From assembly GCA_026388315.1 (NCBI GenBank), contig JAPLKA010000037.1, forward strand, positions 34,259 through 98,258: a stretch of DNA of 64,000 nt, in the 5' to 3' direction. The notes under the pieces are model-generated. The model searched no databases and was not told where the DNA came from. It was given only the letters and a program-made list of their open reading frames with translations. Numbering within the stretch: position 1 is the first letter of the stretch; each line of letters begins with the position of its first letter. The stretch is from Pseudomonadota bacterium. Lineage in GTDB: Bacteria > Desulfobacterota > Syntrophorhabdia > Syntrophorhabdales > Syntrophorhabdaceae. A program made the position numbers and the translations under genes. Positions 8,210 through 58,267 of the stretch are shown piece by piece.

Positions 8210-8320
8210 GTCCACACTCCATGCCCCTTCGGGGCACAAGTAAATTTTTAAGAAACATCTCCTCTCTGCGAACTCTGCGTCTCGAAGTAGCGTAAGCGAC
8301 TGGGCGAGAGGAAAGAATTT
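8210..8320 (+). repeat. dispersed structured repeat, family B copy 1
   Basis: Hairpin tgcccc-ttc-ggggca, then aagtaaattt, then cctctc (8261-8266) pairing with gagagg (8306-8311), ending in gggcgagaggaaa. The same layout occurs at 10561-10850 and 39618-39725. Confidence 0.7.
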
Positions 8321-8496
8321 AGAAGTAAATGTTTTTCAACTCATACGATTCAATCCCGACTGAGGAGGGACAACTCAACACACAACACTGCTTTTAAAAA
8401 GGGGAAATGAATGAGCCATAATTGAAAGATGAGGAAGTAACGAAGATTATAAATGTAATTAGTGGTAATTCATGGTAATTATTTTGGGGGTAACAT

Positions 8497-8844
8497 ATGA
8501 AAAAAGACCATCTTGAAATGATACTGGAAGATATTAAAGAGAAGTTTGACCTTGTCCTTGAGGGCCACGAAGTACTCCACAGGGAAATTCAAGATACCAG
8601 GCAGGAGCTTCGTGAAGAGATCGGCCTGGTGAATGGCAAGGTTGATGCCCTCAACCACAAGATTGATTCCGTGGATAAGAAACTCTCAGATAAGATTGAT
8701 TCCGTGGATAAGAAACTCTCAGATAAGATTGATGATGTGGAAAAATCCCTCAAACAGGAGATCAGGGCAGTAGCTGACGATCTTGCCGCCCACCGTGCTG
8801 ACACTGAATCACACGGGAAAGGTTACAAGGTTTCCGACAGTTAA
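8497..8844 (+). CDS. small coiled-coil protein with 11-residue repeats
   Basis: ATG with an upstream gggggtaaca. The sequence is charged and helical, with KIDSVDKKLSD repeated. Confidence 0.6.
   Translation: MKKDHLEMILEDIKEKFDLVLEGHEVLHREIQDTRQELREEIGLVNGKVDALNHKIDSVDKKLSDKIDSVDKKLSDKIDDVEKSLKQEIRAVADDLAAHRADTESHGKGYKVSDS
8659..8740 (+). repeat. 33-bp perfect tandem duplication (2.3 copies) inside the CDS
   Basis: aagattgattccgtggataagaaactctcagat occurs at 8659-8691 and again at 8692-8724, followed by a partial third copy. Confidence 0.9.
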
Positions 8845-8864
8845 AAAAAGCAGTTTTTGCCACA

Positions 8865-9005
8865 GATAAGATCGGATATAAATCTGATGAATGAGAGATG
8901 TATTGGTTTTGGTCAGAATTATGGATACCCCGCAAATTCTGCCCAAACAGCTCACCCTTCGGGTAACTGTAATATCCATTCAACAATAGCGCCTAAGGCG
9001 CTACG
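8865..9005 (+). mobile_element. MITE-like / IR-bounded module, family A copy 1
   Basis: The core 8907-8975 (ttttggtcagaattatggata...ttctgcccaaacag...cccttcgggta) is about 85% identical to 47542-47616 and to the reverse complement of 46138-46213. The left end gataagatcggat resembles ggataagagcggat of the other copies. Confidence 0.45.
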
Positions 9006-9179
9006 GAAGGTGTTGGTCATCTGAGAGTAACAAATTGAAATTACTTGGACAAAACTCAAGACCGCTTTTATGGCGTGGCCCGACACCAAGTAATAATCAC
9101 GACCCAATCAAAACAACCAACAACCAATTTTTTCTTGAAACATGCTATACTATAATAAGATTAATAAATGGAGGTGCAA

Positions 9180-9407
9180 ATGATCAGGGCGAGTTTTGTG
9201 GTGAAACTTAACGATCTTGATTCAAGCCTCATTGAAAAGCTGAGGAGTGTATTTAAAAACGATAATGTTGTTGAGATTAATATATCGGACAGTCTTGATG
9301 AAACAGAATACTTAATGTCAACTCCAGCAAATCGTGAATCCCTTGAAAGATCGTTGGAACAGCTCAAAAGACGGGAATTCGTATCGATTTCTGCCGGTGA
9401 ACTATAA
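9180..9407 (+). CDS. antitoxin with YefM/Phd-like C-terminal toxin-binding tail
   Basis: GGAGGTG lies 4 nt before ATG 9180. The C-terminus DETEYLMSTPANRESLERSLEQLK resembles the YefM EETAYLLRSPANARRL region. It lies 3 nt upstream of yoeB. Confidence 0.7.
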   Translation: MIRASFVVKLNDLDSSLIEKLRSVFKNDNVVEINISDSLDETEYLMSTPANRESLERSLEQLKRREFVSISAGEL

Positions 9408-9410
9408 GGC

Positions 9411-9662
9411 ATGATCAACTTCACAAAAGAGGCATGGGAGCAGTACACATACTGGCAAAATGTCGATAAAACCATGGTTAATAAAATTAATAATCTCATA
9501 AAAGACTGCACGAGAAGCCCCTTTAAAGGAATCGGAAAACCGGAGCCGCTAACAAAAAACCTCTCCGGGTTCTGGTCAAGAAGGATTGACGATGAACATA
9601 GACTTGTGTACAAATACGAAAATGGAGATTTGTTTATTATATCATGCCGGTTCCATTATTGA
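9411..9662 (+). CDS. yoeB: YoeB/Txe family toxin (mRNA interferase)
   Basis: Near-colinear with E. coli YoeB as I recall it: WEQYTYWQ, INNLIKD, PFKGIGKPEPL, LSGFWSRRIDDEHRLVY, RFHY. Confidence 0.9.
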   Translation: MINFTKEAWEQYTYWQNVDKTMVNKINNLIKDCTRSPFKGIGKPEPLTKNLSGFWSRRIDDEHRLVYKYENGDLFIISCRFHY

Positions 9663-9747
9663 TGTGTTAGTCGGCTCGCTTTTTTGACCCTTTCTTTAAA
9701 GGTGCCTTTTGTGCCTTGGTCCGACCCCAATTGTTAATACACATTTT

Positions 9748-9779
9748 ACCCGCAAGGGTGTGCGGGTTTGCCCTTTAAT
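9748..9779 (+). terminator. hairpin plus T-rich tail downstream of yoeB (possible terminator)
   Basis: acccgca-agggtg-tgcgggt followed by ttgcccttt. A near-copy of the hairpin is at 10678-10696. Confidence 0.3.
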
Positions 9780-9881
9780 CCCTAATCCAGCTACCATCTG
9801 TGGCTGAATAATAAGTTATCAATGAACGCTATTAACGCAAAAAAATGCAAAACTGTATTTCATAAACCAGGGAGGTAAAAT

Positions 9882-10097
9882 ATGAGCGGTACAACTTTAG
9901 ATAGATTGTTGGATGACTTTAAGGAATTGCCCATAGATGACAAAGAATACGCTCTTAATATTATAACCAAACAGTTTATAGAGACAAAGAGATTGGCAAT
10001 TGCAAAAAGAGCAAAGGAAGCAATGTCAAATTTGAAAAAAGGAGCAGTGAAAGCAGGAACCGTGAAGGATTTATATAAGGAACTGGAAAGTGATTGA
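9882..10097 (+). CDS. putative antitoxin of the RelE-like module
   Basis: A strong RBS agggaggt precedes the ATG. The protein is small and helical. It overlaps the downstream toxin start by 8 nt. Confidence 0.55.
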   Translation: MSGTTLDRLLDDFKELPIDDKEYALNIITKQFIETKRLAIAKRAKEAMSNLKKGAVKAGTVKDLYKELESD

Positions 10098-10360
10098 GCT
10101 TACCTGGGATCAGGGCTTTAAAAGAATTTACAAAAAGAAAGTTAAAAATAATCAGGAACTTAAAGAGAGATTCTGGGATGCTGTTGAGCTATTTTCAAAG
10201 GAACCTTTCAATCACAGCCTGAGAACCCATAAGTTGACGGGAAAGCTTGATGGTTTTTTGGGCTTTCAGTGTAGCATTTGATTGTAGAGTCATTTTTAAG
10301 TTTTTAAACAAGAATGAAGTTTTGTTGGTAGACATAGGTGGCCATGATGAAGTGTACTAA
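10090..10360 (+). pseudogene. RelE/YafQ-type toxin disrupted by +1 frameshift in a T6 run
   Basis: The ORF stops at 10281. Removing one T from the run at 10254-10259 restores ...KLDGFWAFSVAFDCRVIFKFLNKNEVLLVDIGGHDEVY*, a canonical RelE/YafQ C-terminus. Confidence 0.75.
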
Positions 10361-10560
10361 GAAAATATCATCCGTTCTTGTACATCATCTCTCACAGAGA
10401 CCACAGATAAAAGAAATTGCGGATTGCGAAATGCGGATTTAAATACAAAACTTGAAGTGCATGAAAAAGAATCTAAGGCCTTGTCTCTCACAGAGTACGC
10501 AGAGTTCGCAGAGAAAGATGAGATATAATGGTGGACAGAATTCAGAGACAGACGAATTCT

Positions 10561-10850
10561 GTCCACACTCCATGCCCTTACAGGGCAGAAGTAAATTAAA
10601 TCTCAAACCAACATTTAAAACCATGTTTCTCAACGGTGAGCGCACCCAAATAAATGACGCTGATAGAAGTAAATTTTACCCGCAGGATGTGCGGGTTTGC
10701 TGGAATGAATCTTTCTCCTCATTCCAGCAAAGATATCTCCTCTCAGTTTACCCCGTGTAACGCATTTGCTACTCTATTGCACTGGGGTGCCCTCTGCGGA
10801 CTCGAGTGATCCCGTCGATGACGGGAGAACGGGCGAGAGGAAAATGATTT
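10561..10850 (+). repeat. family B copy 2 (expanded by internal insertions)
   Basis: The 5' part gtccacactccatgccc..gggcagaagtaaatt sits at 10561-10598. The 3' part cctctgcggactcgag...gggcgagaggaaaa sits at 10790-10845. An acccgca hairpin copy lies between them. Confidence 0.6.
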
Positions 10851-11077
10851 AAAATCTTTATCTCTCACAGAGCACACAGAGTTAAAGTATCTTCTGGTAA
10901 CTATCCATTCAACAATAGCACCGAAGGCGCTGATTGTTTTACCTGATTTGCCGCTCTATCTCAAATCAGGTAAAGAAAAATAACATCCGCATTCATCCGC
11001 AGTTATCTGTGGCTAAAAAAAGCATTTATCACCTTGGTCAAGACCTGCTTCGCATGGTTTAGCAGGGCGTTATAAAT

Positions 11078-11110
11078 AAATTCTAAATTCTCATTTCTAA
11101 ATTCTAAATT
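11078..11110 (+). repeat. 33-nt AAATTCT-type heptamer module upstream of wecB
   Basis: 32 of 33 nt are identical to the reverse complement of 53210-53242, which lies inside a coding sequence. Confidence 0.9.
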
Positions 11111-12262: not shown

Positions 12263-13135
12263 ATGTTGCAGTTGGTGAAGAAGATAATTCGAGAAAAAGC
12301 AATTGATTCATTAAAATCAAGAGGCTATTTTGTCGCAAGACCTCATTTTTACAACCCCATTCCAGATAAAGAGTATATTAATGGGCAAGGCTATTGGAAA
12401 CAGCCATATCCTTGTCACGGCATAGAATTTAACGATACGGCACAACTAAGTTTATTGGAGGAAATATCATCTTTTGCAAATGAGATTAATGAATTACCCG
12501 AAGATGTTCTTAACCCCCAGAAGAATCAGAGTTTTCTTGATATGGATCTGGAGTTTTTGTATGGTATGATCCGATTAATAAAACCGAAAAAGTTCATTGA
12601 GATTGGCGCTGGGTGGTCTACGCTGGTCTCTTTGCATGCTATTGAAAAGAATAAAAAAGAGGATATGGATGTACGCATACGATAATAGAGCCATATCCTA
12701 ATCGTTCTCTCTTACATTTTATTAATAATGCAGATTGTTATATTCAAAAAACAGGTTCAAGAAATATCGCCTGATTTATTTGTTGGTTTGGGTCAAAATG
12801 ACATTTTATTTATCGACACAAGCCATGTTGCAAAGTATGGAAGTGATGTAAACTATCTTTATTTTCATATACTTCCTTTGATCGGATCGGGTTGCTGCGT
12901 CCATATTCATGATATTTTTCTTCCAAATGATTATTTTCATGATTGGGTTGTTAAAAATGATCTTTTTTGGACCGAACAATATGTTGTTACCGCTTTTTTG
13001 ATGTATAACCAAGAGTTCACAGTAAAGCTTGCAGCCCAGTATCTAAGCCGAAAGTACCGCAGCAAGCTTAATAACCTATTCCCACGGTTTAAACCATCTT
13101 TTTCACCGGGCAGCCTTTGGATCCAAAGAAAATAA
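12263..13135 (+). pseudogene. class I methyltransferase (Methyltransf_24-like) with two compensating frameshifts
   Basis: Two same-frame ORFs are separated by TAA TAG at 12683-12688. The expected motif IEPYPNRSLLHFINNAD is encoded in another frame between 12685 and about 12750. The return to frame coincides with an A6 run. Confidence 0.6.
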
Positions 13136-13212: not shown

Positions 13213-14145
13213 ATGGAAACAAACAGAATAAAAAGGATTCTTGTTACGGGAAGTAAAGGTACTCTTGGAGTTCCTCTTGTTGCGGAGCTGAAAAAGCGGG
13301 GTCACGAAGTGTGGCAGTGCGACCTGCAGCATCAGCGGGACGAAAACTATATTCGAGCAGACGTATCAAACCACCGTCAGTTGGAAAGAGTTTTCGAGGC
13401 AAATCAATACGACTATGTGTATCACCTTGCCGCTGAATTCGGACGTATCAATGGAGAGGAATATTACGATACATTGTGGGAGACAAATGTAATAGGGACC
13501 AGGAATATCCTTGAGTGGCAAAAAAGAAAAGGTTTCAGGCTCATATTCGCCAGTTCCTCGGAGATATATGGGGATAAACACGAGGAAATTCTTTCGGAGG
13601 ATATTCCTCTCAATAAATCCATCATTCAGCATAACGATTATGCGACCACAAAATGGGTCAATGAAGTTCAGATAATGAACTTTGAAAAAAGATACGGCAT
13701 TGAGACCGTCCGATGCCGGTTTTTCAATGCCTACGGCCCGGGGGAGCATTATCATCATTACAGAAGTGTGGTTTGTTTATTTTGTTACAGGGCGTTGCAT
13801 AATATTCCCTGGCAAGTATATGAAGGGTATCATAGAGTCTTTATGTATATTGATGATTTTATCCCCACTCTTTCTAATGTCTGCGAAAATTTCAAGGCAG
13901 GTGAGGTTTACAATATTGGCGGCGAAGAATTCAGGAGCGTTAAGGAACTCAGTAATTTAGTGTTGAAACATACGGGCGCAGACGAGTCGCTTGTGGAATA
14001 TCTACCTGAGGACAAGCACAATACGATGAATAAGAAACCTGACATATCAAAGGCAAAGAAAGACCTTGGACACAATCCCAGGATTATATTGGAGGAGGGC
14101 GTGCCAAAAACAATAGAGTGGATGAAAGCAACATACAGAGTATAG
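13213..14145 (+). CDS. NAD-dependent epimerase/dehydratase (SDR)
   Basis: RBS aaagaggtgag precedes ATG 13213. Motifs ILVTGSKGTLG, SSSEIYG and YATTKW (YxxxK). Confidence 0.85.
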   Translation: METNRIKRILVTGSKGTLGVPLVAELKKRGHEVWQCDLQHQRDENYIRADVSNHRQLERVFEANQYDYVYHLAAEFGRINGEEYYDTLWETNVIGTRNILEWQKRKGFRLIFASSSEIYGDKHEEILSEDIPLNKSIIQHNDYATTKWVNEVQIMNFEKRYGIETVRCRFFNAYGPGEHYHHYRSVVCLFCYRALHNIPWQVYEGYHRVFMYIDDFIPTLSNVCENFKAGEVYNIGGEEFRSVKELSNLVLKHTGADESLVEYLPEDKHNTMNKKPDISKAKKDLGHNPRIILEEGVPKTIEWMKATYRV

Positions 14146-16193: not shown

Positions 16194-16446
16194 GCGAAAA
16201 AGTGAGGTTTATGATATTGGTGGAAAAGAATTCAGGAGCGTGAAAGAACTCAGTAATTTAGTATTGAAACATACCGGTGCAGATGATTCGCTTGTGGAAT
16301 ATCTACCTGAGGACAAGCACAATACGATGAATAAGAAACCTGACATATCAAAGGCAAAGAAAGACCTTGGACACAATCCCAGGATTATATTGGAGGAGGG
16401 CGTACCCAAAACGATAGAGTGGATGAAGCAGGTGTATGGGAAATAG
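16194..16446 (+). pseudogene. duplicated 3' fragment (last about 80 codons) of the epimerase gene at 13213..14145
   Basis: 16201-16428 aligns with 13901-14128 at an offset of exactly 2300 bp, including a 116-bp perfect match (13987-14102 = 16287-16402). There is no N-terminal part. Confidence 0.85.
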
Positions 16447-32651: not shown

Positions 32652-32873
32652 TTGTCTGTATCCGCGGTACCCGGAATACGTCCTATCAATAGTTTGGTGC
32701 GTGTAGCTAAAGATATGGATGGATTCGAACGGTATATTACGGAGGCATTAGAGGAACGGAATGAGGACTTGCTTCAATGGCGACTGGCAGTTGCCCAAGA
32801 TAACTCGTGGGAGAGGCGTGCGGAAGCAGTGATAGGAATTATTGGCAACGCTCTGCAAGGCAAAAGACTTTGA
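32652..32873 (+). pseudogene. C-terminal relic of a TuaH-like glycosyltransferase
   Basis: VPGIRPINSLVRVAKDMDGFERYI aligns with VPEIRPYAGFVRVARSIDEFTNAL of 27952..29127. No upstream part is present. Confidence 0.6.
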
Positions 32874-33150
32874 AGATTTTGTTTATCCATCAGGGTTTGC
32901 AATCTTTTGTCCAGAAAGACTTGGACATCTTACGCTCTGCTCACGAGGTATGTGAAGTCTGGTTTGGGGGGCTTCGAAGTGTTCCCGCTATCTGTTCCGG
33001 CGCAAAATGGGCCGATGTTACCTTCTCATGGTTCGGAAAACTTCACGCTTTTTTTGCGGTTTTATTTTCAAAGTTATTGGGGGGGAAACCGTTGTGGTGG
33101 CAGGTGGAGATGATGTTGCCTGCGGTCCATCGGAAAGGGAGTTAGTGCTG
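32870..33150 (+). pseudogene. N-terminal relic (frameshifted, truncated) of the GT4 gene at 36665..37729
   Basis: KILFIHQGLQSFVQKDLDILRSAHEV...WADVTFSWFGKLHAFFAVLFSKLLG matches residues 23-100 of the intact gene. A frameshift at a G7 run near 33088 follows, and the relic ends at the start of the next gene. Confidence 0.75.
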
Positions 33151-36664: not shown

Positions 36665-37729
36665 ATGAATATTCAATCAAGCTATTGTGATTTAATAGCA
36701 CTCGACCATAAAAAAGCGCGAAGCTTGCGGATACTTTTTGTTCATCAAGGTCTTCAATCTTTTGTCCAAAAGGACCTGGAAATCTTACGCTCTGCGTATG
36801 AAGTCCGTGAAGTTTGGTTTAGGGGGCTTCGAAGTGTCCACGCTATCTGGTCCGCTACACAGTGGGCTGATGTTACGTTCTCATGGTTTGGCAAATTACA
36901 TGCTTTTTTTGCTGTTTTATTTTCAAAATTATTGGGGAAAAAGGCCGTTGTGGTGGCAGGCGGTGATGATGTTGTATATCTACCAAAGCTTAAGTATGGT
37001 TTGTTTTGTTATTGGTGGAAGAAATGGTGTCCTTTGTTTGTTTTTAAGTACGCTGATCTTGTTCTTCCCGTATCGAGGTACAATGAACAAGAAACCATAA
37101 AGAATGCAAAGGTAGATCATCAGAAGATCAGGATATTGTACCATGGATTTGACTCGAATGATTTTCAGAATCTGTCCAGCATTGGAACTGAGCGGGTTGC
37201 CATCACAGTTGGAGGAGTAGACTGGGAGCGTGTGCAGCGCAAAGGGTATGAGAGGTTTGTTCGAAGTGCAAAGTATCTTCTTGATGTACAATTCATTTTA
37301 ATAGGGAAGTGGCACGATGACGCCATTGATTATCTTCGTAATATTGCCTCTGAGAATGTTGTTTTTACCGGCCAGGTTAGCGATGAGGAATTAATGAGAT
37401 GGTTGTCGTTGGCTAAGGTTTATGTACAGGTTTCGCTTCATGAGGCATTTGGCTGTTCGCTGGCAGAGGCAATGCTCTGTGAATGCATTCCTGTCGTGTC
37501 AAGAACTGCCGCAATCCCTGAAGTAGTGGGTGACACAGGCTTCTATGTTGATGATGTAACCCCTCAAAACCTTGCCAGCAAAATCAAATATGCAATGACG
37601 TTGCCCGACGATTATGGAAAAAAAGCAAGACAGAGAATTATAGAGGAATTTCCTCTTTACAGGAGAAGACAGCAAATATTGGAAGCTATGAAGGCAATGT
37701 CGGCTCAAGATACCGAGGCAAGTTCATAG
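36665..37729 (+). CDS. GT4-like glycosyltransferase
   Basis: EAFGCSLAEAMLCECIPVVSRTAAIPEVVGDTGFYV. Confidence 0.8.
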   Translation: MNIQSSYCDLIALDHKKARSLRILFVHQGLQSFVQKDLEILRSAYEVREVWFRGLRSVHAIWSATQWADVTFSWFGKLHAFFAVLFSKLLGKKAVVVAGGDDVVYLPKLKYGLFCYWWKKWCPLFVFKYADLVLPVSRYNEQETIKNAKVDHQKIRILYHGFDSNDFQNLSSIGTERVAITVGGVDWERVQRKGYERFVRSAKYLLDVQFILIGKWHDDAIDYLRNIASENVVFTGQVSDEELMRWLSLAKVYVQVSLHEAFGCSLAEAMLCECIPVVSRTAAIPEVVGDTGFYVDDVTPQNLASKIKYAMTLPDDYGKKARQRIIEEFPLYRRRQQILEAMKAMSAQDTEASS

Positions 37730-39770: not shown

Positions 39771-40757
39771 ATGAAAAACTTTGTTTTACTGGGTGCGGCT
39801 GGATTCGTTGCACCACGCCACATGCGGGCAATAAAAGATACGGGTAACAAACTTGTTGCTGCAATGGATAAGCATGATGCGGTTGGAGTCATCGATAACT
39901 ATTTCCCTGAATCTGCTTTTTTTGTCGAGTTTGAGCGTCTTGACAGACATGTCGAAAAGCTGAGGCGCATGGGAGAAGAGAAAAAGGTTCATTATGTTAG
40001 TATAGCTTCTCCGAATTATCTTCATGATGCACATATTCGCTTTGCGCTCCGGGTAGGTGCTGACGCCATCTGCGAAAAGCCCCTTGTTCTAAACCCATGG
40101 AATATTGATGCACTGAAAGAAATTGAGAAAGAATCAGGCAAGAAGGTTAATACAGTTCTTCAGCTACGCCACCACCCTTCCATCATAGCCCTCAAGCAGA
40201 AAGTTGATGCCGTTGCACTTAGCCATTTGTCTTTAGCCTCAAACGCCCCTCGCCCAAAATATGACATTGACCTCACCTATATCACCTCCCGCGGCCGTTG
40301 GTATCTTGTGTCCTGGAAAGGCGATTTAGCAAAATCCGGTGGGTTGGCTACAAACATAGGCGTCCATTTCTTCGACATGCTCCAGTGGATATTCGGGGAT
40401 GTTCAATCAAATATCGTACATATTTCAGAACCCATGAAAGCCGCAGGATTCCTTGAATTGCAGAAGGCAAGAATAAGATGGTTTTTGTCAATAGACAGCA
40501 ATGATCTTCCCGTTTCCGCAAGGGATGCGGGCAAACCAACATATCGTTCAATAACAATTGACCAGGAAGAATTAGAATTCTCTGAAGGCTTTGCAGACCT
40601 CCATACAGTTACTTACCAAGAAATCCTGAAGGGTAATGGTTTTGGTCTGGATGATGTAAAACCTTCAATCGAAATCGCACATGAGATACGGAATGCAAAG
40701 CCAGTAGGACTTAAGGGAGAGTATCACCCGTTTTTGAAAGCCGTGGCTGGTGGATAG
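39771..40757 (+). CDS. wbpB: UDP-GlcNAcA 3-dehydrogenase-like Gfo/Idh/MocA oxidoreductase (WbpB/WlbA type)
   Basis: MKNFVLLGAAGFVAPRHMRAIKDTGN, SPNYLH, ICEKPL, LQLRHH, DLTYITSRGRWY, TNIGVHFFDML and PTYRSITI are colinear with WbpB as I recall it. Confidence 0.75.
   Translation: MKNFVLLGAAGFVAPRHMRAIKDTGNKLVAAMDKHDAVGVIDNYFPESAFFVEFERLDRHVEKLRRMGEEKKVHYVSIASPNYLHDAHIRFALRVGADAICEKPLVLNPWNIDALKEIEKESGKKVNTVLQLRHHPSIIALKQKVDAVALSHLSLASNAPRPKYDIDLTYITSRGRWYLVSWKGDLAKSGGLATNIGVHFFDMLQWIFGDVQSNIVHISEPMKAAGFLELQKARIRWFLSIDSNDLPVSARDAGKPTYRSITIDQEELEFSEGFADLHTVTYQEILKGNGFGLDDVKPSIEIAHEIRNAKPVGLKGEYHPFLKAVAGG
40212..40256 (+). repeat. in-frame 45-nt repeat island in wbpB (encodes VALSHLSLASNAPRP)
   Basis: cttagccatttg and gcccctcgccc are the same module types as those in wbpE at 43101-43254. 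The island interrupts an otherwise WbpB-colinear sequence. Confidence 0.6.
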
Positions 40758-41177
40758 TGGCTGGTGGATAGTGAAGAAATGAAAGATTTTAAAGAATTAG
40801 AGGTTTGGCAGAAAAGCGTGGATTTTGTATTAAATATTTATGAGACTTCGAAAAGCTTTCCCCATGAAGAAATGTTCAGCCTGACCAACCAGATGAGGAG
40901 ATCGGCAGTATCAATACCGTCCAATATTTCAGAGGGATTCTCAAGAAACAGCACTAAAGAATTCATACAGTTTCTCTATATAGCGCTTGGCTCATCAGCA
41001 GAATTAGAAACACAAATTTTAATCTCACATAAATTAGGATATCTCATTGATCCAACTAAACTGATCGATAACCTCACAACAATTAAGAAGATGCTGAATG
41101 CCCTCGTTTCATCATTAAAAGGAAAAATAAAACAGTCATGATTGACCAACCACCAGCCACCAGCCACCAGCCACTAT
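40754..41177 (+). mobile_element. IVS-like cassette: four-helix-bundle gene bracketed by a perfect 14-bp inverted repeat
   Basis: atagtggctggtgg (40754-40767) is the exact reverse complement of ccaccagccactat (41164-41177). Both arms sit inside longer arrays: the left is a 14-nt unit x2, the right is ccaccag x3. Confidence 0.45.
40779..41141 (+). CDS. four-helix-bundle protein (23S rRNA intervening-sequence protein / Avd-like family)
   Basis: ELEVWQKS, FPHEEMFSLTNQMRRSAVSIPSNISEGFSR and YIALGSSAELETQ. Confidence 0.9.
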   Translation: MKDFKELEVWQKSVDFVLNIYETSKSFPHEEMFSLTNQMRRSAVSIPSNISEGFSRNSTKEFIQFLYIALGSSAELETQILISHKLGYLIDPTKLIDNLTTIKKMLNALVSSLKGKIKQS

Positions 41178-41776
41178 ATTTCGTTCATGAAAGCAGCTTC
41201 ATTGATCCCGATGTCGAAATAGGAGAAGGCACGAAGATCTGGCATTTCAGCCACATTCTGAGCGGAGCGAAAATTGGCAATAACTGCATTATTGGCCAAA
41301 ACGTTTGTATAGAACGGGATGTTATCATAGGAAATAGATGTAAGATTCAAAACAACGTTTCAGTATATAAAGGTGTGACACTTAAAGATGAGGTTTTTTG
41401 TGGTCCTTCATGTGTGTTCACAAATGTCTATAACCCGCGTGCATTCATTGAACGAAAGACAGAGTTCCGGCCAACATTAGTGAAAAGAGGCGCCACTATC
41501 GGTGCCAACGCAACAATACTCTGTGGTGCCACTATAGGACGGTACGCCATGATCGGTGCTGGAGCACTCGTCAGATCTGATGTTCCCGATTACGCTATCT
41601 TCGTCGGCGTCCCTGCAAAGCAGGTAGGGTGGGCATGCAAGTGTGGAATGACAATAAAGACGGGCAAGGGGCAATGGGCAATGGGCAAGGCTTCTTCGGA
41701 CCCCTTAGTCTGTAGCTATTGTGGTAATCAGTATTGTATTGACGGTGATAGCCTAACCCCAATAATTGAAAAATAG
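41138..41776 (+). CDS. wbpD: UDP-2-acetamido-3-amino-2,3-dideoxy-glucuronate N-acetyltransferase-like (WbpD/WlbB type, hexapeptide repeat)
   Basis: IWHFSHI, CKIQNNVSVY, VFCGPSCVFTNVYNPRAFIERK, GATIGANATILCG and VGVPAKQVGW. The first 12 codons are encoded by the repeat arm. Confidence 0.75.
   Translation: MIDQPPATSHQPLYFVHESSFIDPDVEIGEGTKIWHFSHILSGAKIGNNCIIGQNVCIERDVIIGNRCKIQNNVSVYKGVTLKDEVFCGPSCVFTNVYNPRAFIERKTEFRPTLVKRGATIGANATILCGATIGRYAMIGAGALVRSDVPDYAIFVGVPAKQVGWACKCGMTIKTGKGQWAMGKASSDPLVCSYCGNQYCIDGDSLTPIIEK
41662..41692 (+). repeat. in-frame G-rich repeat island in the wbpD C-terminal zinc-ribbon loop
   Basis: gggcaaggggcaatgggcaatgggcaagg. Bases 41663-41679 are complementary to 42208-42224 (16 of 17). 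Confidence 0.7.
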
Positions 41777-41808
41777 AAAGCAAGCGGTAGATAATAGACA
41801 AAGGTAAA

Positions 41809-42177
41809 ATGGGAAAAGAAGGGTTTAAGGAGTTGAAGGTTTGGGAAAAAGCTAAAGATTTAGCTGTGGATATCTATAAACTTACGATGCAGGGGGAAAT
41901 AAGTAAAGATTTTGGCTTACGTGACCAGATTCGACGCAGTGCGGTAAGCATCGCAAGTAACATTGCTGAGGGTGATGAACGAGATACGGATAAGGAGTCT
42001 GTCAGATTCTTTTACATTGCTAAAGGATCTCTTGCAGAACTGCAGACACAAATGCAGATTGCCTGTGAAATAGGATATTGCAGTATAAGTATTTACGATG
42101 GAATCGATTTGAAATGCATAGAATTGGGTAAAATGATCGGTAAGCTAATAAAAGCCCGTCAAGAGACGAGGATATAA
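41809..42177 (+). CDS. four-helix-bundle protein (23S rRNA IVS protein / Avd-like family), second copy
   Basis: ELKVWEKA, GLRDQIRRSAVSIASNIAEG and YIAKGSLAELQTQ. Confidence 0.9.
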   Translation: MGKEGFKELKVWEKAKDLAVDIYKLTMQGEISKDFGLRDQIRRSAVSIASNIAEGDERDTDKESVRFFYIAKGSLAELQTQMQIACEIGYCSISIYDGIDLKCIELGKMIGKLIKARQETRI

Positions 42178-42194
42178 ACATGAACTTTATCCTT

Positions 42195-42224
42195 CCTATA
42201 GCCTATAGCCCATTGCCCCATGCC
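42195..42224 (+). repeat. C-rich repeat arm (cctatag x2 + cccattgcccc) downstream of the second four-helix-bundle gene
   Basis: A 23-nt identity with 54404-54426, and complementarity to 41663-41679. Confidence 0.7.
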
Positions 42225-42234
42225 AGGTGAATAA

Positions 42235-43503
42235 ATGAAAATTCCCATGCTCGATCTTAAACTCGAATACGAATACATGAAAGCTGATATTGATGCTGCC
42301 ATTGCCCGTTGCCTTGAGCATCAGCATTGGATTCTTGGTCCTGAAGTAAAGGAATTTGAAGACAAAGTTTCAGATTATCTTGGTGTTAAATACTGCATAG
42401 GTACTTCATCGGGCACCGACGCTCTTGTCCTTGCCCTCCGCGCTCTAGCAATTAAAACGAAAGGCCAGGAATATTTTGACCGCTCCGATTTGATCATCAC
42501 CACTCCATTTACTTTTACTGCCACTGGCGATGCTATCCTCCGCGCTGGCGCCACCCCCTTTTTCGTCGACATCGACCCCATCACCTATAACCTCGATCCA
42601 AATCAAATTAGAGAGTATTTAACTCAAAACTCAAAACTCAAAACTCAAAACTCCACCCACGTAGTGGGTGTCGTGCCGGTTCATTTATATGGTCAATCTT
42701 GCCAGGTGGATAAAATCATGAGTATCGCCAGCGAGCATAGCCTATTTGTTGTTGAAGACTGTGCCCAGGCGTTTGGGGCTGCCCGGGGAGGCAAGAGGCT
42801 CGGGGCAATAGGCGATGCAGGCGCTTTCAGTTTTTTTCCAAGTAAGAACCTCGGTGGGTTCGGTGATGCAGGGATGGTATCAACCAATGATGATGAACTT
42901 GCCGATCTTATCCGTATGCTCATCAAACATGGTGGTAAAGACAAATATAATGTTGACCACGTCGGCTACAATGCTCGTATGGATACCCTACAAGCAGCGG
43001 TCCTCCTTGCAAAGCTCCCCTACATAGATGAATTCAACTCCCGCCGCCAACGTATTGCTTCTATATATAATGAAGGTCTAAAGGACCTTCCCGGTCTTAT
43101 CTTGCCCTTAGCCCTTAGCCATTTGCCACAGGCCGGGGTTGATTCACCCATAGCCCATAGCCCATCACCTGCTTTCGCTCATGTTTATCACCAATACACG
43201 CTCCGCGTCCTCAGCGGTTCTTCATCTCTTGCCCCTCGCCCATCGCCCCTTGCCAATAGTTTTTCATCCACCAACAGGGACACGCTCCAGCGCTACCTGA
43301 AAGACGCTGGCATCGATAGCATGGTTTACTACCCTGTGCCTTTACATAAGATGAAGGTTTTTGGCGGAAGATGCATGGTTTATGACGAATTAATGGAAGC
43401 CGAAAAAGGAGCGCAGGAGGTCTTGAGTTTGCCTATTGAACCCTTACAAAGCGAAGATGTTATTCTCCATATAGCGGAGACCACTAAAGAGTTTTTCATA
43501 TAA
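42235..43503 (+). CDS. wbpE: UDP-2-acetamido-2-deoxy-3-oxo-glucuronate aminotransferase-like (WbpE/WlbC type, DegT family)
   Basis: ILGPEVKEFE, SGTDAL, VDIDPITYNLDP, VEDCAQAFGA, FSFFPSKNLGGFGDAG, GYNARMDTLQAAVL and HVYHQYTLRV. It carries three in-frame repeat islands. Confidence 0.75.
   Translation: MKIPMLDLKLEYEYMKADIDAAIARCLEHQHWILGPEVKEFEDKVSDYLGVKYCIGTSSGTDALVLALRALAIKTKGQEYFDRSDLIITTPFTFTATGDAILRAGATPFFVDIDPITYNLDPNQIREYLTQNSKLKTQNSTHVVGVVPVHLYGQSCQVDKIMSIASEHSLFVVEDCAQAFGAARGGKRLGAIGDAGAFSFFPSKNLGGFGDAGMVSTNDDELADLIRMLIKHGGKDKYNVDHVGYNARMDTLQAAVLLAKLPYIDEFNSRRQRIASIYNEGLKDLPGLILPLALSHLPQAGVDSPIAHSPSPAFAHVYHQYTLRVLSGSSSLAPRPSPLANSFSSTNRDTLQRYLKDAGIDSMVYYPVPLHKMKVFGGRCMVYDELMEAEKGAQEVLSLPIEPLQSEDVILHIAETTKEFFI
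42621..42653 (+). repeat. AACTCAA heptamer x4.5, in-frame in wbpE
   Basis: aactcaaaactcaaaactcaaaactcaaaactc encodes NSKLKTQNS. Confidence 0.9.
43101..43172 (+). repeat. mosaic repeat island in wbpE (cttagcc, catagcc types)
   Basis: cttgcccttagcccttagccatttgcc ... cacccatagcccatagcccatcacc encodes LALSHLPQAGVDSPIAHSPSP. Confidence 0.8.
43228..43254 (+). repeat. repeat island in wbpE (cctcgcc, catcgcc types)
   Basis: cttgcccctcgcccatcgccccttgcc encodes LAPRPSPLA, between the conserved HQYTLRV and NRD blocks. Confidence 0.8.
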
Positions 43504-47502: not shown

Positions 47503-47700
47503 GGATAAGAGCGGATAAATTCTGATAAATGATATAATAATTTTTGGTCAGAATTATGGATAAACCGCAAATTCTGCCCAAACAGCATACCCTGCGGGTA
47601 GCTGAATATATGCGAAGCATGAGTATGGAACAGGGATTGCCGGTTTATCACAATGCCTGTTCCAAGAAAAACACATCCGCTGTTATCAGATTTTATCCCT
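47503..47700 (+). mobile_element. family A IR-bounded module, forward orientation
   Basis: ggataagagcggat (47503-47516) and atccgctgttatc (about 47687-47699) bracket the core at 47542-47616. The reverse complement of 47490-47541 also resembles 46214-46262. Confidence 0.45.
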
Positions 47701-52615: not shown

Positions 52616-55710
<3,095 letters not shown>

Positions 55711-55711
<1 letters not shown>

Positions 55712-55727
55712 TTGAGTAATTGAGTGA
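55711..55727. repeat. left arm of a perfect 17-bp inverted repeat (partner 57427-57443)
   Basis: attgagtaattgagtga is the exact reverse complement of tcactcaattactcaat at 57427-57443. Confidence 0.9.
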
Positions 55728-55784: not shown

Positions 55785-58043
55785 ATGGTTAATTGCTATA
55801 TTTCAGAGTGGATTGATAAAATTATCCAGTACGGTATTCTGGCCGTGTGGGTTTTTCTCCCCCTTGCCTTTGGCTCTGTACATGTATGGGCCTATGTGTC
55901 GGCGGAGATTGCTGTATGGGTGCTGGTGGGATTGTCAGCTATCGGCTCAATGGTAAGAGCGCAGAGCGCAGGGCGCAGGGCGCAGGGCGCAAAAAGTATA
56001 CACACGCAGCGCGAAAGTGAATATTTCACCTTTCACCTTTCACCTTTCACCTTTCGCAATTTCTTCACCTGTCCTTTGCATATCTTCATGTTCATCGGGC
56101 TTGTGCTTGTGTTTATGCAAATCGTCCCCTTACCTTTACAGAAAATAAAGTTGCTTTCCCCGGAGGCCTTTGCATCCTATAAACGGGTATTTGATATTAT
56201 AGGCGGAAATATCCCTGAATGGATTCCATTGAGTCTGTTTCCCTATGCCACAAGGGTTGAGTGGTTTAAACTCCTCGCGTGTGTTGCCCTTTTTGAACTT
56301 GTCTTCTACAAGGTTACCGAAAGAAAAGATTTGCAGAGGCTCATCCTGGTCTGGGTTGTGATGGGAATATTTCAGAGTTTTTACGGCCTGCTGCAATCGA
56401 TTGACGCCGTTAAGGGTATCTGGTGGTGGAAAGACACTTTTGCTCAGGATCAATCAATTGGTACGTTTATCTATCGTAACCATTTCGGGACATATATGGC
56501 GATGCTGGTCCCGCTCTTTATCGGATTATTCTTCAGTGAAATAAACGGCGCCAGTCGTAAACTACGGCAAATACGCGAGGATATATCAAGGGATCAATTA
56601 ATTAAAACCTTGAGCGATATTTTGACAAAGACCATTCTTACAGGCCTTGTTGTTGTTTTTGTTGTAGTTGGTTTTGTTCTTAGCGGTTCACGCGGCGGAA
56701 TCATGGCATGTGCATCTGCATTTATCATTACCTCCGTGTTTTTGTGTTTCAGAAAAGATACAAGACGGTATGGTTTTGCCCTTTTGATCCTCTTCGGAAT
56801 GGTTGTTGCTTACAACCTCTATCTCACATTCGACCGAACTGTGGAGCGATTTTCATCTTCATCATCGGATGTGCAGGGCAGGATTGAATTTACAAAACAT
56901 GCATGGGAGATGTCGGAGAAGTTTCCGATAACCGGCAGTGGCTGGGGTACATTTGAGGAGTTATACAGACGTTATAAGCCGCCAACATCATGGAACAAAG
57001 CAGTTGACCATGCCCATAACGACTGGGTGGAGTTGCTTACAGAGACTGGGTGGGGAGGACCGGCCATTGCGCTCATAGCGTTCATTGTGTTCATCGTCAT
57101 TGTTTTTAAGAAATGGATGGAACAGGCGAACAGGCATTCACGGTGGTCAAAATGGGTAGGGTTCGGTTGTATAGTGGGTGTTATAACCCCGCTTATCCAT
57201 GCAACGGGCGACTTTGTATTACGCTGCCCGGCGGTTACTATGACATGGTTCGGGTTGATGGCAGTGACGTGGAATGTCGTTCATCTGAGAGAAGCTGTTC
57301 AAGGTTCAAGGTTCAAGGTTCAAGGTTCAAAGCAGGGAGCAGAAGCAGCGCATGGCGTAGAGCGCATGGCGCATGGCGCAACCACCAATCACTCAGTTAG
57401 TCAATCACTTAATCACTCTTCACCCATCACTCAATTACTCAATCACTCGATTACCATTATCTTGCTCATCGTGTTTGTAGCGTTTTATGCCTGGTGGGGA
57501 TGGTCGGTCATGAAGCATGGGATTGCACAGGCGTATGTGCCGACTGAAATAAATTCAACAATAAAAACCGAAAGGGTAATGGCAATTGACAAATTGCTGT
57601 ATGCATTAAATATGGAACCGGATAATGCAGAGTTATGGTTCAGGCTTGCAGAGGCTACTTCGATATTGCCGGACAAAACAGAACTTGACATGATAGATGG
57701 ATGGGTAAAAAAGAAAAAGATAGACATACATGGCGACAGGAATAACCTTGCCCTTTATGCAAATGCATTTCTCAGAGAGGCAATCACGAGGAATCCAACC
57801 AATCCGAAGCCTTTTGCCTATTTCGGTTGGATATATGGCTATTACGGAAGGTATGATTTTGCAGAAAGAGCTTTGTCCATGTCGATCTATTTAGACCCTT
57901 ACAATCCGGAGTGGTATTATCTGACAGGACTAATTGAGTATAACATGGGACTTACAGACATTGCGAAAACATTCTTCAAAATGGCAACAGAGATTGATCC
58001 GGAGTATAAGCGGAAAACAGTAATTGAGCAAGTAAGTGAGTGA
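55785..58043 (+). CDS. O-antigen ligase (Wzy_C) family membrane protein with C-terminal TPR domain and two in-frame repeat islands
   Basis: Multi-TM. SGSRGGIMACASAF, DHAHNDWVELLTETGWGG (Wzy_C signature). C-terminal TPR-like AELWFRLAEA, YFGWIYGYYGRYDFAERA and YYLTGLIEYNMG. Confidence 0.75.
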   Translation: MVNCYISEWIDKIIQYGILAVWVFLPLAFGSVHVWAYVSAEIAVWVLVGLSAIGSMVRAQSAGRRAQGAKSIHTQRESEYFTFHLSPFTFRNFFTCPLHIFMFIGLVLVFMQIVPLPLQKIKLLSPEAFASYKRVFDIIGGNIPEWIPLSLFPYATRVEWFKLLACVALFELVFYKVTERKDLQRLILVWVVMGIFQSFYGLLQSIDAVKGIWWWKDTFAQDQSIGTFIYRNHFGTYMAMLVPLFIGLFFSEINGASRKLRQIREDISRDQLIKTLSDILTKTILTGLVVVFVVVGFVLSGSRGGIMACASAFIITSVFLCFRKDTRRYGFALLILFGMVVAYNLYLTFDRTVERFSSSSSDVQGRIEFTKHAWEMSEKFPITGSGWGTFEELYRRYKPPTSWNKAVDHAHNDWVELLTETGWGGPAIALIAFIVFIVIVFKKWMEQANRHSRWSKWVGFGCIVGVITPLIHATGDFVLRCPAVTMTWFGLMAVTWNVVHLREAVQGSRFKVQGSKQGAEAAHGVERMAHGATTNHSVSQSLNHSSPITQLLNHSITIILLIVFVAFYAWWGWSVMKHGIAQAYVPTEINSTIKTERVMAIDKLLYALNMEPDNAELWFRLAEATSILPDKTELDMIDGWVKKKKIDIHGDRNNLALYANAFLREAITRNPTNPKPFAYFGWIYGYYGRYDFAERALSMSIYLDPYNPEWYYLTGLIEYNMGLTDIAKTFFKMATEIDPEYKRKTVIEQVSE
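55957..56056 (+). repeat. repeat island (GCGCAGG x4 ... CACCTTT x4) in the ligase gene
   Basis: Seen directly. It encodes RAQSAGRRAQGAKS..FTFHLSPFTF. Confidence 0.9.
57298..57450 (+). repeat. repeat island (GGTTCAA x4, GCGCATG, AATCACT, ATCACCC types) in the ligase gene
   Basis: Seen directly. It encodes QGSRFKVQGSKQGAEAAHGVERMAHGATTNHSVSQSLNHSSPITQLLNHS. Confidence 0.9.
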
Positions 58044-58267
58044 ATGTCATTCAACCCATAGGTTGGCAAATAACCAGAATCAGAGCAACAGCGAGGACAG
58101 TGATTATAGTCCCCCGCTCCCACTGGTGGAGTTTTACAGTATGCTTCCAGCCACAGTTACTGCAGTGGAATACCCTTCTCCCAAAATACTTTAGAAACCA
58201 TTCTTTAAAGCCCACCCAATTCTCATTGATTGCCAGTATTCATATATCTATTCCTGCTTTGCCCATC

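What the first reader, a model, noticed from the sequence alone, without database searches (positions are those of the whole stretch)
55785..58043. O-antigen ligase/TPR gene carries two in-frame heptamer-repeat islands
Two islands are translated without breaking the frame. The first, at 55957-56056, holds GCGCAGG x4 and CACCTTT x4. The second, at 57298-57450, holds GGTTCAA x4, GCGCATG and AATCACT/ATCACCC types. The second falls between the last TM region of the Wzy_C domain and the TPR domain.

The terminal surface-glycan ligase is a classic target of phase variation. A one-unit change would truncate the protein before or after the catalytic loop.
Basis: partly seen in the sequence, partly recalled or inferred. 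Interest (0 to 1): 0.7.

Follow-up and report, generated by a model that had tools for sequence, protein, structure and literature searches.

The report
In-frame heptamer-repeat islands in ligase gene
A surface-sugar ligase-like gene carries two stretches of 7-base tandem repeats that are read through as floppy protein loops; they belong to a repeat family scattered through this bacterial lineage, change fast and sometimes break the gene, but do not look like a dedicated on/off switch.

Summary
ORF 55785-58043 (752 aa, Wzy_C plus TPR) contains two in-frame islands of tandem 7/8-nt arrays. The window has 10 perfect period-7 arrays of 3 or more copies; 100 shuffles gave none.

The islands are not special to this gene. 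The same array types fill five islands in the upstream GH42-like gene. They also sit in a DegT aminotransferase and an acetyltransferase, and they flank two 23S-rRNA-IVP genes as inverted pairs. Loci from distant relatives (377 kb) have none.

Close orthologues carry islands at the same two sites, with different length and content (16-64 and 57-139 aa). The rest of the gene is under purifying selection (dN/dS 0.09-0.18). AlphaFold places both islands in the only long disordered segments.

Near-clonal contigs differ only by whole-unit indels in arrays. Two relatives carry frameshifted ligase alleles inside the islands, against about 32 intact ones.

Best reading: these are translated, hypermutable low-complexity loops from a lineage-wide dispersed repeat family. 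They make the gene fragile and possibly switchable, but they are not a dedicated contingency switch. Read-level data are needed to settle this.

The parts
55785..58043 (+). WaaL/Wzy_C-like membrane protein with a C-terminal TPR domain (752 aa), intact
   Evidence: The ORF is. Pfam Wzy_C scores 72.7 bits (cut-off 31.7) at res 288-425, with weak TPR hits at res 600-741. AlphaFold gives pLDDT 88 and pTM 0.90. The best PDB fold match is WaaL 7tpg (E 1.9e-4, TM 0.57 over the target). dN/dS is 0.09-0.18 outside the islands.
55957..56056 (+). Island 1 (res ~58-91): GCGCAGG x4.7 (55959-55991), a 32-nt spacer, then TTTCACC x4.6 (56024-56055). Translated loop between TM2 and TM3.
   Evidence: It is absent from 60 distant homologues (occupancy ~0). 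pLDDT is ~52 at res 71-90. Length is 16-64 aa in orthologues.
57297..57450 (+). Island 2 (res ~505-556): GTTCAAG x4.9 (57297-57330), GCGCATG x4.7 (57348-57380), CAATCACT/ATCACCC x8 (57386-57448). Translated linker between TM12 and an extra TM13.
   Evidence: pLDDT is 42-66 at res 501-550. Length is 57-139 aa in orthologues. The left array is homogenised to GTTCACG in L001.
57423..57536 (+). Extra transmembrane helix (res 547-584) between island 2 and the TPR domain
   Evidence: AlphaFold helix H547-584 with pLDDT 86-97. Hydropathy peak at res 551-569.
58021..58046 (+). Degenerate reverse-orientation array (AGTAAGTGAGTGA) that contains the ligase stop codon. It is the weak complement of the island-2 CAATCACT array.
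   Evidence: 26 nt at 73%, 13 nt at 92% complementary. The same pair is strong in relatives: L002 33 nt at 94%, L001 43 nt at 79%, L105 54 nt at 81%.
55700..55727 (+). Reverse-orientation octamer array (AGTAATTG) that contains the stop codon of the upstream gene
   Evidence: 21 nt 95% complementary to 57427-57447; 28 nt 89% to 54744-54771..
52616..55711 (+). Upstream GH42-like gene (1031 aa) with five in-frame islands: 53159-53348, 53834-53995, 54365-54501, 54705-54800, 55340-55407
   Evidence: The L007 orthologue has islands at the same sites with different arrays (A3). The composite module at 54360-54415 is 82% identical to the one at 55332-55387.
42235..43503 (+). DegT-family aminotransferase with in-frame arrays: AACTCAA x4.7 at 42621-42653, and GCCCTTA/CCCATAG at 43104-43165
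   Evidence: Compared with PDB 7b0d there is a 10-aa gap at the first array. At the second array site the query has about 37 residues more than the structure between two aligned blocks (query 291-347 against chain 299-318).
40743..41174 (+). IVS-like cassette: a 23S_rRNA_IVP ORF (40764-41141) enclosed by inverted heptamer arrays
   Evidence: PF05635 E 5e-39. Arms are 33 nt and 85% complementary. The RNA fold has z -4.2, with 0 of 100 shuffles as stable.
41663..42224 (+). Second IVS-like cassette: a 23S_rRNA_IVP ORF (41809-42177) enclosed by inverted heptamer arrays
   Evidence: PF05635 E 3e-36. Arms are 24 nt and 88% complementary.

Best explanation
The two islands are members of a dispersed family of short tandem 7/8-nt arrays, each usually about 33 nt or 4-5 copies. 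The family is specific to a lineage labelled Syntrophorhabdaceae-like in one relative.

In the ligase-like gene the islands occupy two old, permissive sites. One is the loop between TM2 and TM3. The other is the linker between TM12 and an extra TM13 that leads into the TPR domain. Both are translated as hydrophilic, disordered loops. I infer that both face the cytoplasm.

The island content turns over quickly. The routes are unit slippage, homogenisation within arrays, and copying of composite modules between islands. Meanwhile the rest of the protein is held by purifying selection.

Because the unit is not a multiple of three, slips of 1 or 2 units, or odd duplications, throw the gene out of frame. 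Such broken alleles arise in nature and are mostly removed. The islands are therefore a source of mutational fragility and possibly of occasional, unprogrammed on/off switching. They are not a purpose-built contingency switch.

Shown here: the arrays, their excess over chance, in-frame conservation, hypervariability, unit-size indels, broken alleles in relatives, and disorder in the model.
Inferred: translation, the cytoplasmic side, the mechanisms of turnover, and the lack of adaptive switching.
For: - Excess and periodicity.
- Lineage specificity: 0 perfect heptamer arrays in 77 distant-relative loci (377 kb). The window has 10 in 64 kb and L002 has 10 in 22 kb.
- Other hosts of the arrays: five islands in the GH42-like gene, plus arrays in DegT, the acetyltransferase, intergenic DNA and the flanks of IVP genes.
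- Same heptamers in unrelated genes and genomes: GCGCATG, GTTCACA, AATCACTC, ATCACCC and CCTATAG recur.
- Composite modules are copied: 138 nt at 91% between islands 1 and 2 of L002, and 56 nt at 82% between two islands of the GH42-like gene.
- Orthologues keep the two sites but not the content, and in the full-length alleles compared the islands are in frame.
- dN/dS is 0.09-0.18 outside the islands.
- The islands are absent from 60 distant homologues.
- They are the only long low-pLDDT segments in a confident model.
- K/R-rich even-numbered loops and helix parity put both on the cytoplasmic side.
- Island RNA is no more structured than shuffles (z -1.1 to +1.6).
- Unit-size indels are the only differences between near-clonal contigs.
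- Broken alleles lie inside islands: L005, L017, and the GH2 gene of L105.
- About 32 ligase contigs are intact against 2 broken in an island.
Against: - No read-level data exist for the window's own organism, and assemblies report only the majority allele. Within-population switching could be hidden.
- All genes seen with internal islands (ligase, GH42-like/GH2, DegT, acetyltransferase, GFO-type oxidoreductase) belong to envelope-glycan loci. Contingency loci would cluster there too. Central-metabolism genes in L002 have arrays only between genes.
- Broken alleles were found in 2 of 8 ligase lineages and in a neighbouring GH2 gene. That is more than expected for an ordinary gene.
- The narrow array length (16 of 21 arrays have 4.1-5.3 copies) is not explained by simple slippage.
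- The pairing of complementary arrays around modules is also not explained by simple slippage.
- Translation of the islands is inferred from frame conservation only.
Confidence: 0.6

Rival explanations
1. Adaptive phase variation. The heptamer arrays act as slipped-strand contingency tracts. They reversibly switch the ligase, and neighbouring glycan genes, between full-length and truncated forms, varying the cell surface under phage or other pressure.
For: - The unit is not a multiple of 3, and changes of 1-2 units truncate before or after the catalytic loop.
- Whole-unit indels occur between near-clonal contigs.
- OFF alleles lie inside islands in L005 and L017, and in the GH2 gene of L105.
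- All genes with internal islands are glycan-related.
- neuO shows that heptanucleotide tracts can work this way (PMC13001214).
Against: - Only 4.6-4.9 units per tract. In neuO the count ranges from 3 to 53 and the commonest is 20.
- About 32 contigs are ON and 2 OFF. The 806-aa allele is identical in 13 contigs from 10 or more samples, and the P0005 allele is identical over 13.5 kb in two samples.
- Up to 15 arrays sit in one gene, placed mid-gene and towards the 3' end, which is a poor switch design.
- The same arrays occur in intergenic DNA and as IVP-cassette arms.
- More than 25 other glycosyltransferase and methyltransferase genes of the same cluster have none.
- One OFF allele is a 23-nt duplication, not a unit slip.
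Confidence: 0.2
2. Selfish, copy-and-paste repeat modules. The islands are footprints or solo arms of a mobile element family related to the IVS-like 23S-rRNA-IVP cassettes. They insert in frame into permissive loops, as Rickettsia palindromic elements do. This rival concerns origin and is compatible with the best explanation for present-day behaviour.
For: - Three IVP ORFs are each enclosed by their own complementary heptamer arrays: GTGGCTG/CCACCAG, GGGCAAT/CCCATTG and GATGGTA/ATCTACT.
- The closing stem is significant (z -4.2).
- Identical heptamers and composite modules recur at unrelated sites.
- The left edge A(A/G)GCTGTTCA is conserved in three islands.
Against: - No filled-versus-empty site polymorphism was seen. 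Islands are at the same sites in all close orthologues.
- There are no target-site duplications, no transposase, and no hairpin within coding islands.
- The TM13-TPR module bracketed by arrays is ancestral to the family, not an insertion.
Confidence: 0.25
3. Artefact or dead gene. The islands are assembly errors in a metagenome-assembled genome, or the gene is a decaying pseudogene.
For: Some relatives' contigs are clearly troubled at the islands. L006 joins another locus inside island 2. P0130/P0131 carry a frameshift outside the islands.
Against: - The same islands are reproduced base for base in independent samples and assemblers.
- The frame is kept in the intact allele of every lineage compared.
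- dN/dS is 0.09-0.18.
- Catalytic-loop residues are invariant.
- The fold model is confident.
Confidence: 0.03

Closest known systems
Tandem heptanucleotide elements of Geobacter metallireducens (Gmet_H4 series; Aklujkar et al. 2009, PMC2700814) and long heptanucleotide simple-sequence repeats of prokaryotes (Mrazek and colleagues, as summarised in PMC4679880)
   Same: Four to five tandem copies of a 7-nt (also 8-nt) unit. Dozens of copies per genome. Found between genes and within genes, sometimes several per gene. The host is also placed in Thermodesulfobacteriota-type bacteria.
   Different: Here many different heptamers are joined into composite islands of 100-190 nt. The islands are shown to stay in frame, to be hypervariable between close relatives, to exchange modules, and to occur as complementary pairs. 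The Geobacter elements are one consensus (GGACCGG) and were proposed to be regulatory RNA. Their reading-frame behaviour was not read here.
neuO of E. coli K1 (heptanucleotide AAGACTC translational phase variation)
   Same: A 7-nt unit inside the coding sequence of a surface-glycan gene. The product is full length only when the frame is kept, and slipped-strand change alters the unit number.
   Different: neuO has one long 5' tract (3-53 units) with about two thirds of genomes OFF. Here there are five short tracts in two mid-gene islands, about 94% of contigs are ON, and the same tracts are scattered over other genes and spacers.
Rickettsia palindromic elements (selfish DNA inserted in frame in protein-coding genes; Ogata et al. 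2000, from my own knowledge, not read here)
   Same: Repeated DNA of about 100-150 nt sits in frame in surface loops of otherwise conserved proteins and is translated.
   Different: RPEs are palindromic members of a few consensus families. These islands are direct tandem arrays with no internal hairpin, and no empty sites were seen.
TAACTGA direct repeats of marine Beggiatoaceae and heptamer repeats of cyanobacteria (MacGregor 2015, PMC4679880)
   Same: Lineage-specific, abundant tandem heptamers of a few copies. Orientation relative to genes matters, and one orientation carries stop codons and sits at ORF ends.
   Different: TAACTGA repeats are mostly intergenic and upstream of start codons, and they are a single unit type. 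Here the stop-free orientation is embedded in coding sequence.
ORF-bearing 23S rRNA intervening sequences (Coxiella, Leptospira; PMC4990558 abstract)
   Same: This applies to the neighbouring cassettes only. A PF05635 (S23p/IVP) ORF is enclosed by complementary arms that form a long stem.
   Different: The cassettes sit inside a polysaccharide operon rather than in rRNA. The arms are heptamer arrays that double as the stop codon of the upstream gene and the N-terminus of the downstream gene.

Membership tests
O-antigen ligase / Wzy_C superfamily (WaaL-like) | Pfam Wzy_C domain above the gathering score | tested here: met
   72.7 bits against a cut-off of 31.7, at res 288-425
O-antigen ligase / Wzy_C superfamily (WaaL-like) | Polytopic WaaL-like fold with a large loop after TM9 that carries conserved His/Arg | tested here: met
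   AlphaFold pLDDT 88. The best PDB match is WaaL 7tpg (E 1.9e-4, TM 0.57 on the target). R303 and D413 are invariant, and R366, H411, N412 and H472 nearly invariant, in 67 sequences.
O-antigen ligase / Wzy_C superfamily (WaaL-like) | Ligase activity (rather than Wzy polymerase or O-oligosaccharyltransferase activity) | not testable with these tools
   Wzy_C covers all three activities, so only the genomic context (a glycan cluster) is available.
Slipped-strand phase-variable contingency locus | Tandem repeat inside the ORF with a unit that is not a multiple of 3 | tested here: met
Slipped-strand phase-variable contingency locus | Unit-number polymorphism among otherwise identical strains | tested here: met
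   Met in relatives only: a 14-nt (2x7) deletion in L005 and a 16-nt (2x8) indel in the P0003 lineage. It could not be tested for the window's own strain.
Slipped-strand phase-variable contingency locus | ON and OFF alleles both common in populations | tested here: not met
   About 32 intact contigs against 2 broken in an island. Assemblies hide minority alleles, so this is a weak test.
Slipped-strand phase-variable contingency locus | Long tract that gives a high switching rate | tested here: not met
   4.6-4.9 units per tract. In neuO the count ranges from 3 to 53 and the commonest is 20.
Slipped-strand phase-variable contingency locus | Measured reversible switching with a phenotype | not testable with these tools
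   This needs reads or culture.
Dispersed tandem-heptanucleotide elements (G. metallireducens H4 type / heptanucleotide LSSR) | Four to five tandem copies of a 7-nt unit | tested here: met
   16 of 21 period-7 arrays have 4.1-5.3 copies
Dispersed tandem-heptanucleotide elements (G. metallireducens H4 type / heptanucleotide LSSR) | Many copies per genome, both within and between genes | tested here: met
Dispersed tandem-heptanucleotide elements (G. metallireducens H4 type / heptanucleotide LSSR) | A single shared consensus unit | tested here: not met
   About 35 different units occur in about 100 kb, though several recur.
In-frame selfish elements (Rickettsia palindromic element type) | In-frame insertion in loops of conserved proteins | tested here: met
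In-frame selfish elements (Rickettsia palindromic element type) | Palindromic or hairpin-forming element | tested here: not met
   Island RNA folds have z from -1.1 to +1.6.
In-frame selfish elements (Rickettsia palindromic element type) | Presence/absence polymorphism of insertion sites among relatives | tested here: not met
   The same sites are filled in all close orthologues. Only seven lineages were sampled.

The most novel reading that the evidence does not exclude
The 7/8-nt arrays may be a lineage-specific 'bracketing' system rather than slippage debris. Complementary arrays are laid down in pairs around discrete modules.

The cases seen:
- Three 23S-rRNA-IVP/Avd-like ORFs, each with its own private heptamer and its complement.
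- The TM13-TPR module of this ligase in 5 of 7 lineages, with arms 577-609 nt apart and up to 54 nt long. L002 folds at z -4.6. The pairing is decayed in the window itself (z +0.7).
- The C-terminal third of the GH42-like gene.

The stop-free arm is translated as a protein loop. The stop-rich arm supplies the stop codon. Such pairs would form long dsRNA stems, which are RNase III substrates, or DNA inverted repeats, which are substrates for intragenic inversion. Either would give module-level control of expression, with the ligase's island 2 as one arm of such a device.
Probability: 0.15. Interest if true: 0.8.

Novelty: new variant of a known kind. Interest (0 to 1): 0.5.

Why it matters
Textbook expectation is that tandem repeats whose unit is not a multiple of three are kept out of coding sequence, except in contingency genes. 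Here a whole lineage tolerates them.

Conserved enzymes and membrane proteins carry composite 7-nt arrays that are read in all three phases as disordered loops. These arrays evolve far faster than the rest of the gene and break the reading frame now and then.

This gives a natural system for three questions. How do dispersed microsatellite-like modules spread? How do proteins absorb them? Is the resulting fragility of surface-glycan genes exploited?

It also matters for annotation. Split ligase and glycosidase genes in MAGs of this group may be real island frameshifts, not errors.

Tried and rejected
- RNA hairpin or riboswitch-like structure within the islands: folds are no better than shuffles, and Rfam finds nothing in the window.
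- tRNA genes: none.
- Intein, intron or other removal: no supporting feature. Frame conservation argues for translation.
- Proteome-wide census of island-bearing proteins, by searching an island peptide against 5.8 billion proteins: only 5 tiny hypothetical proteins came back, so it was uninformative.
- Viral-contig scans for GTTCACA and AATCACTC arrays: 3 and 2 hits, in contigs of 35-61% GC, with no sign of the composite islands. Not informative.
- Metagenome scan for more ligase alleles: only 3 close relatives, two already known. The other 77 loci served as an array-free control.
- Genome-collection scan: one relative, L001, labelled Syntrophorhabdaceae.
- Exact look-up of the window's own protein: not on record. 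No population data exist for this strain.
- Literature searches for in-frame heptanucleotide islands, or for heptamer repeats linked to IVS proteins: nothing beyond the Geobacter, Beggiatoaceae and neuO papers.
- Cassette origin of the TM13-TPR module: rejected, because distant array-free homologues already have it.
Full report
OBSERVATION

The ORF 55785..58043 (+) is uninterrupted and encodes 752 aa. Tandem Repeats Finder reports the following arrays, and the sequence shows them directly.
- GCGCAGG x4.7 at 55959-55991
- TTTCACC x4.6 at 56024-56055
- GTTCAAG x4.9 at 57297-57330
- GCGCATG x4.7 at 57348-57380
- CAATCACT x8.1 at 57386-57448

The excess over chance is large. The window holds 10 perfect period-7 arrays of at least three copies. 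Periods 4-12 give 0-2, and all 100 dinucleotide-preserving shuffles give 0. Simulated gain or loss of one or two units truncates the product at 73-134 aa (island 1) or 522-592 aa (island 2). Three units keep the frame. The last array of island 2 has mainly an 8-nt period. A further transmembrane helix separates island 2 from the TPR domain.

THE GENE

Pfam finds Wzy_C at res 288-425 (72.7 bits, cut-off 31.7) and weak TPR matches at res 600-741. An AlphaFold model built on 67 homologues is confident (pLDDT 88, pTM 0.90). Its best match among solved structures is the WaaL O-antigen ligase 7tpg (E 1.9e-4).

The only long low-confidence stretches are res 71-90 and 501-550, which are the two islands. 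Sixty distant homologues have no residues opposite island 1 and most of island 2.

Hydropathy and the positive-inside rule bear on topology. The K/R-rich loops are 2, 4, 6, 8 and 10, and the Wzy_C catalytic loop comes after TM9. Together with the modelled helix 482-499 as TM12, this puts both islands on the cytoplasmic side. This step is an inference.

The whole window is a surface-polysaccharide cluster of about 58 kb. It contains GT4 and GT2 glycosyltransferases, methyltransferases, epimerases, DegT aminotransferases and a Bac_transf/Polysacc_synt_2 fusion.

THE ISLANDS ARE NOT SPECIAL TO THIS GENE

The upstream GH42-like ORF (52616-55711) carries five islands built from the same units: GTTCACA, AATCACT, ATCACCC, CCTATAG and GAGCGGA.

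A DegT aminotransferase (42235-43503) has AACTCAA x4.7 and further arrays. Aligned to PDB 7b0d, the first is a 10-aa gap, and at the second site the query has about 37 extra residues between two aligned blocks. An acetyltransferase has arrays at its N-terminus and inside a C-terminal Cys-rich loop.

Two small ORFs are 23S_rRNA_IVP (PF05635) proteins: 40764-41141 (E 5e-39) and 41809-42177 (E 3e-36). Each is enclosed by inverted heptamer arrays, 33 nt at 85% and 24 nt at 88% complementary. The first cassette folds with the arrays as a closing stem (z -4.2, 0 of 100 shuffles). A third case is in L002.

Arrays also fill intergenic DNA in relatives.

The phenomenon is lineage-specific. Seventy-seven loci around distant ligase homologues (377 kb) hold no perfect heptamer array at all. 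One relative, L001, is labelled uncultured Syntrophorhabdaceae. Other MAG labels disagree ('Proteobacteria', 'Burkholderiales'), so the taxonomy is tentative.

COMPARISON WITH ORTHOLOGUES

Seven close lineages (69-84% identity in the alignments) carry islands at the same two sites. Their length and content differ: 16-64 aa at island 1 and 57-139 aa at island 2. All full-length alleles are in frame.

Outside the islands dN/dS is 0.09-0.18, so the gene is functional.

Arrays evolve in concert. The left array of island 2 is GTTCAAG in the window and GTTCACG/GTTCACA in L001.

Composite modules are copied between islands. A 138-nt module is shared at 91% between islands 1 and 2 of L002. A 56-nt GTTCACA-CCTATAG module is shared at 82% between two islands of the GH42-like gene. 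The same heptamers recur in non-homologous genes of different genomes. This argues for propagation rather than independent local slippage.

The GH42-like orthologue in L007 has islands at the same five sites with different arrays.

POPULATION EVIDENCE

Stability:
- The 806-aa allele of the P0007 lineage is identical in 13 contigs from at least 10 samples.
- The P0003 allele is identical in four samples.
- Two P0005 contigs are identical over 13.5 kb.

Change:
- Among these near-clonal contigs (0-1 substitutions) the only indels are in arrays. One is a 14-nt (2x7) deletion in island 2 of L005, which splits the gene into 594 + 173 aa. The other is a 16-nt (2x8) indel in the array at the ligase stop codon of the P0003 lineage.
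- In-frame variants lacking 42 or 63 aa (126 or 189 nt) of island 2 also exist.
- The NCBI MAG GCA_026388255.1 (L017) has a 23-nt tandem duplication in island 1 that creates a stop. The gene is annotated as 73 + 633 aa, while a sister contig encodes the intact 725-aa protein.
- In L105 the neighbouring GH2 gene is out of frame inside its island.
- L006 joins another locus inside island 2 and is probably chimeric.
- One further frameshift lies outside the islands (P0130/P0131).

The tally is about 32 intact ligase contigs against 2 broken within an island. In neuO, the known heptanucleotide switch, tracts hold 3-53 units and 65.6% of 64 genomes are OFF.

INTERPRETATION

The islands behave as translated, disordered, fast-evolving insertions from a dispersed repeat family. 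They sit at two permissive sites of an otherwise constrained protein. Their 7-nt unit makes them a hot spot for frame-breaking indels.

That satisfies the mechanical half of the phase-variation idea. The signatures of a dedicated contingency locus are missing:
- there is no long tract;
- OFF alleles are not common;
- the arrays are not restricted to particular genes or positions.

I put 0.6 on the by-product reading and 0.2 on adaptive switching. The caveats are that assemblies hide minority alleles, and that every gene seen with internal islands is glycan-related.

The origin of the arrays (selfish spread, possibly tied to the IVP cassettes) is a separate, open question.

A LEAD BEYOND THE FINDING

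The CAATCACT array at the 3' edge of island 2 is complementary to an AGTGATTG-type array that contains the ligase stop codon, about 580-610 nt downstream.
- In the window the pairing is weak: 26 nt at 73%, 13 nt at 92%, and fold z +0.7.
- In relatives it is strong: L002 33 nt at 94% with fold z -4.6 (0 of 20 shuffles), L001 43 nt at 79%, L105 54 nt at 81%.
- L017 has a short 16-nt pair at 81%.
- L007 and L103 have none.

On the + strand of the window the AGTGATTG orientation occurs at the stop codons of the two island-bearing genes; the one other + strand match (24717) has three mismatches and looks like chance. With the three IVP cassettes, this suggests that arrays come in complementary pairs that bracket modules. 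I cannot tell whether this reflects RNA processing, DNA inversion, or shared family membership plus orientation constraints. The reverse orientation is full of stop codons, so it can survive only at gene ends.

COMPARISON WITH WHAT IS KNOWN

- The nearest described thing is the set of multicopy tandem-heptanucleotide elements of Geobacter metallireducens. These are four GGACCGG units at 49 sites, within and between genes. Behind them stands the general finding that heptanucleotide units dominate long simple repeats in many prokaryotes (summarised in PMC4679880).
- neuO is the model for heptanucleotide translational switching.
- Rickettsia palindromic elements are the model for in-frame selfish DNA. 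This comparison rests on my own knowledge.
- The present case differs in four ways: the composite multi-unit islands, demonstrated in-frame hypervariability, module exchange, and paired complementary arrays.

I rate it a new variant of a known kind, with moderate interest.

Noticed in passing
window 40743-41174 and 41663-42224; L002 4164-4710: Each of three 23S_rRNA_IVP (PF05635, bAvd-like) ORFs is enclosed by its own pair of complementary heptamer arrays. This resembles an ORF-bearing rRNA intervening sequence, but it sits inside a polysaccharide operon. The G-rich arm holds the stop codon of the upstream gene. The C-rich arm is translated as the start of the downstream gene. The first cassette folds at z -4.2.
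   Followed up: partly
window 57386-57448 with 58021-58046; L002 11772-11848 with 12426-12477; L001 2116-2158 with 2757-2799; L105 9687-9740 with 10326-10379: The 3' array of island 2 and an array over the ligase stop codon are inverted repeats that bracket the TM13-TPR coding module (577-609 nt). They are strong in three relatives (L002 folds at z -4.6), weak in L017 and the window, and absent in L007 and L103.
   Followed up: partly
window 55700-55727 with 54744-54771 and 53929-53956: The stop codon of the GH42-like gene lies in a reverse-orientation octamer array. That array is 86-89% complementary to CAATCACT arrays in two of the gene's own islands.
   Followed up: no
L105 3384-7632 versus L002 5445-9674: The GH2 gene next to the ligase is 91% identical at the DNA level between two lineages. 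The exception is one island where all arrays are replaced. In L105 the island is out of frame and splits the gene into 587 + 831 aa.
   Followed up: partly
window 7688-11100: A 3.4-kb stretch inside the glycan cluster has no large gene. It holds small ORFs that look, by eye and untested, like toxin-antitoxin genes (a YoeB-like and a RelE/ParE-like ORF) and a retropepsin-like ORF. It also holds a coiled-coil ORF with a perfect 33-nt duplication (8659-8724) and several short dispersed repeats (8204-8246 ~ 10555-10597; 8973-9002 ~ 10902-10931; 8907-8969 ~ 47542-47604 at 90%).
   Followed up: no
window 13901-14126 ~ 16202-16427 (93%); 32870-33082 ~ 36725-36937 (82%): Two pairs of direct repeats of 213-226 nt lie 2.3 and 3.9 kb apart within the glycan cluster. 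They may be duplicated gene ends or recombination scars. GC content drops to 33-35% at 14-22 kb.
   Followed up: no
L007 7080-7640: The intergenic region is packed with arrays in both orientations. It also holds repeated GTCATTCCGAATCCCCGCGTGAGCGGGGTGAGGAATC hairpin (REP-like) units.
   Followed up: no
window, all period-7 arrays: Array length is oddly uniform. Sixteen of 21 arrays have 4.1-5.3 copies (about 29-36 nt, often exactly 33 nt). Free slippage would not be expected to give this.
   Followed up: no
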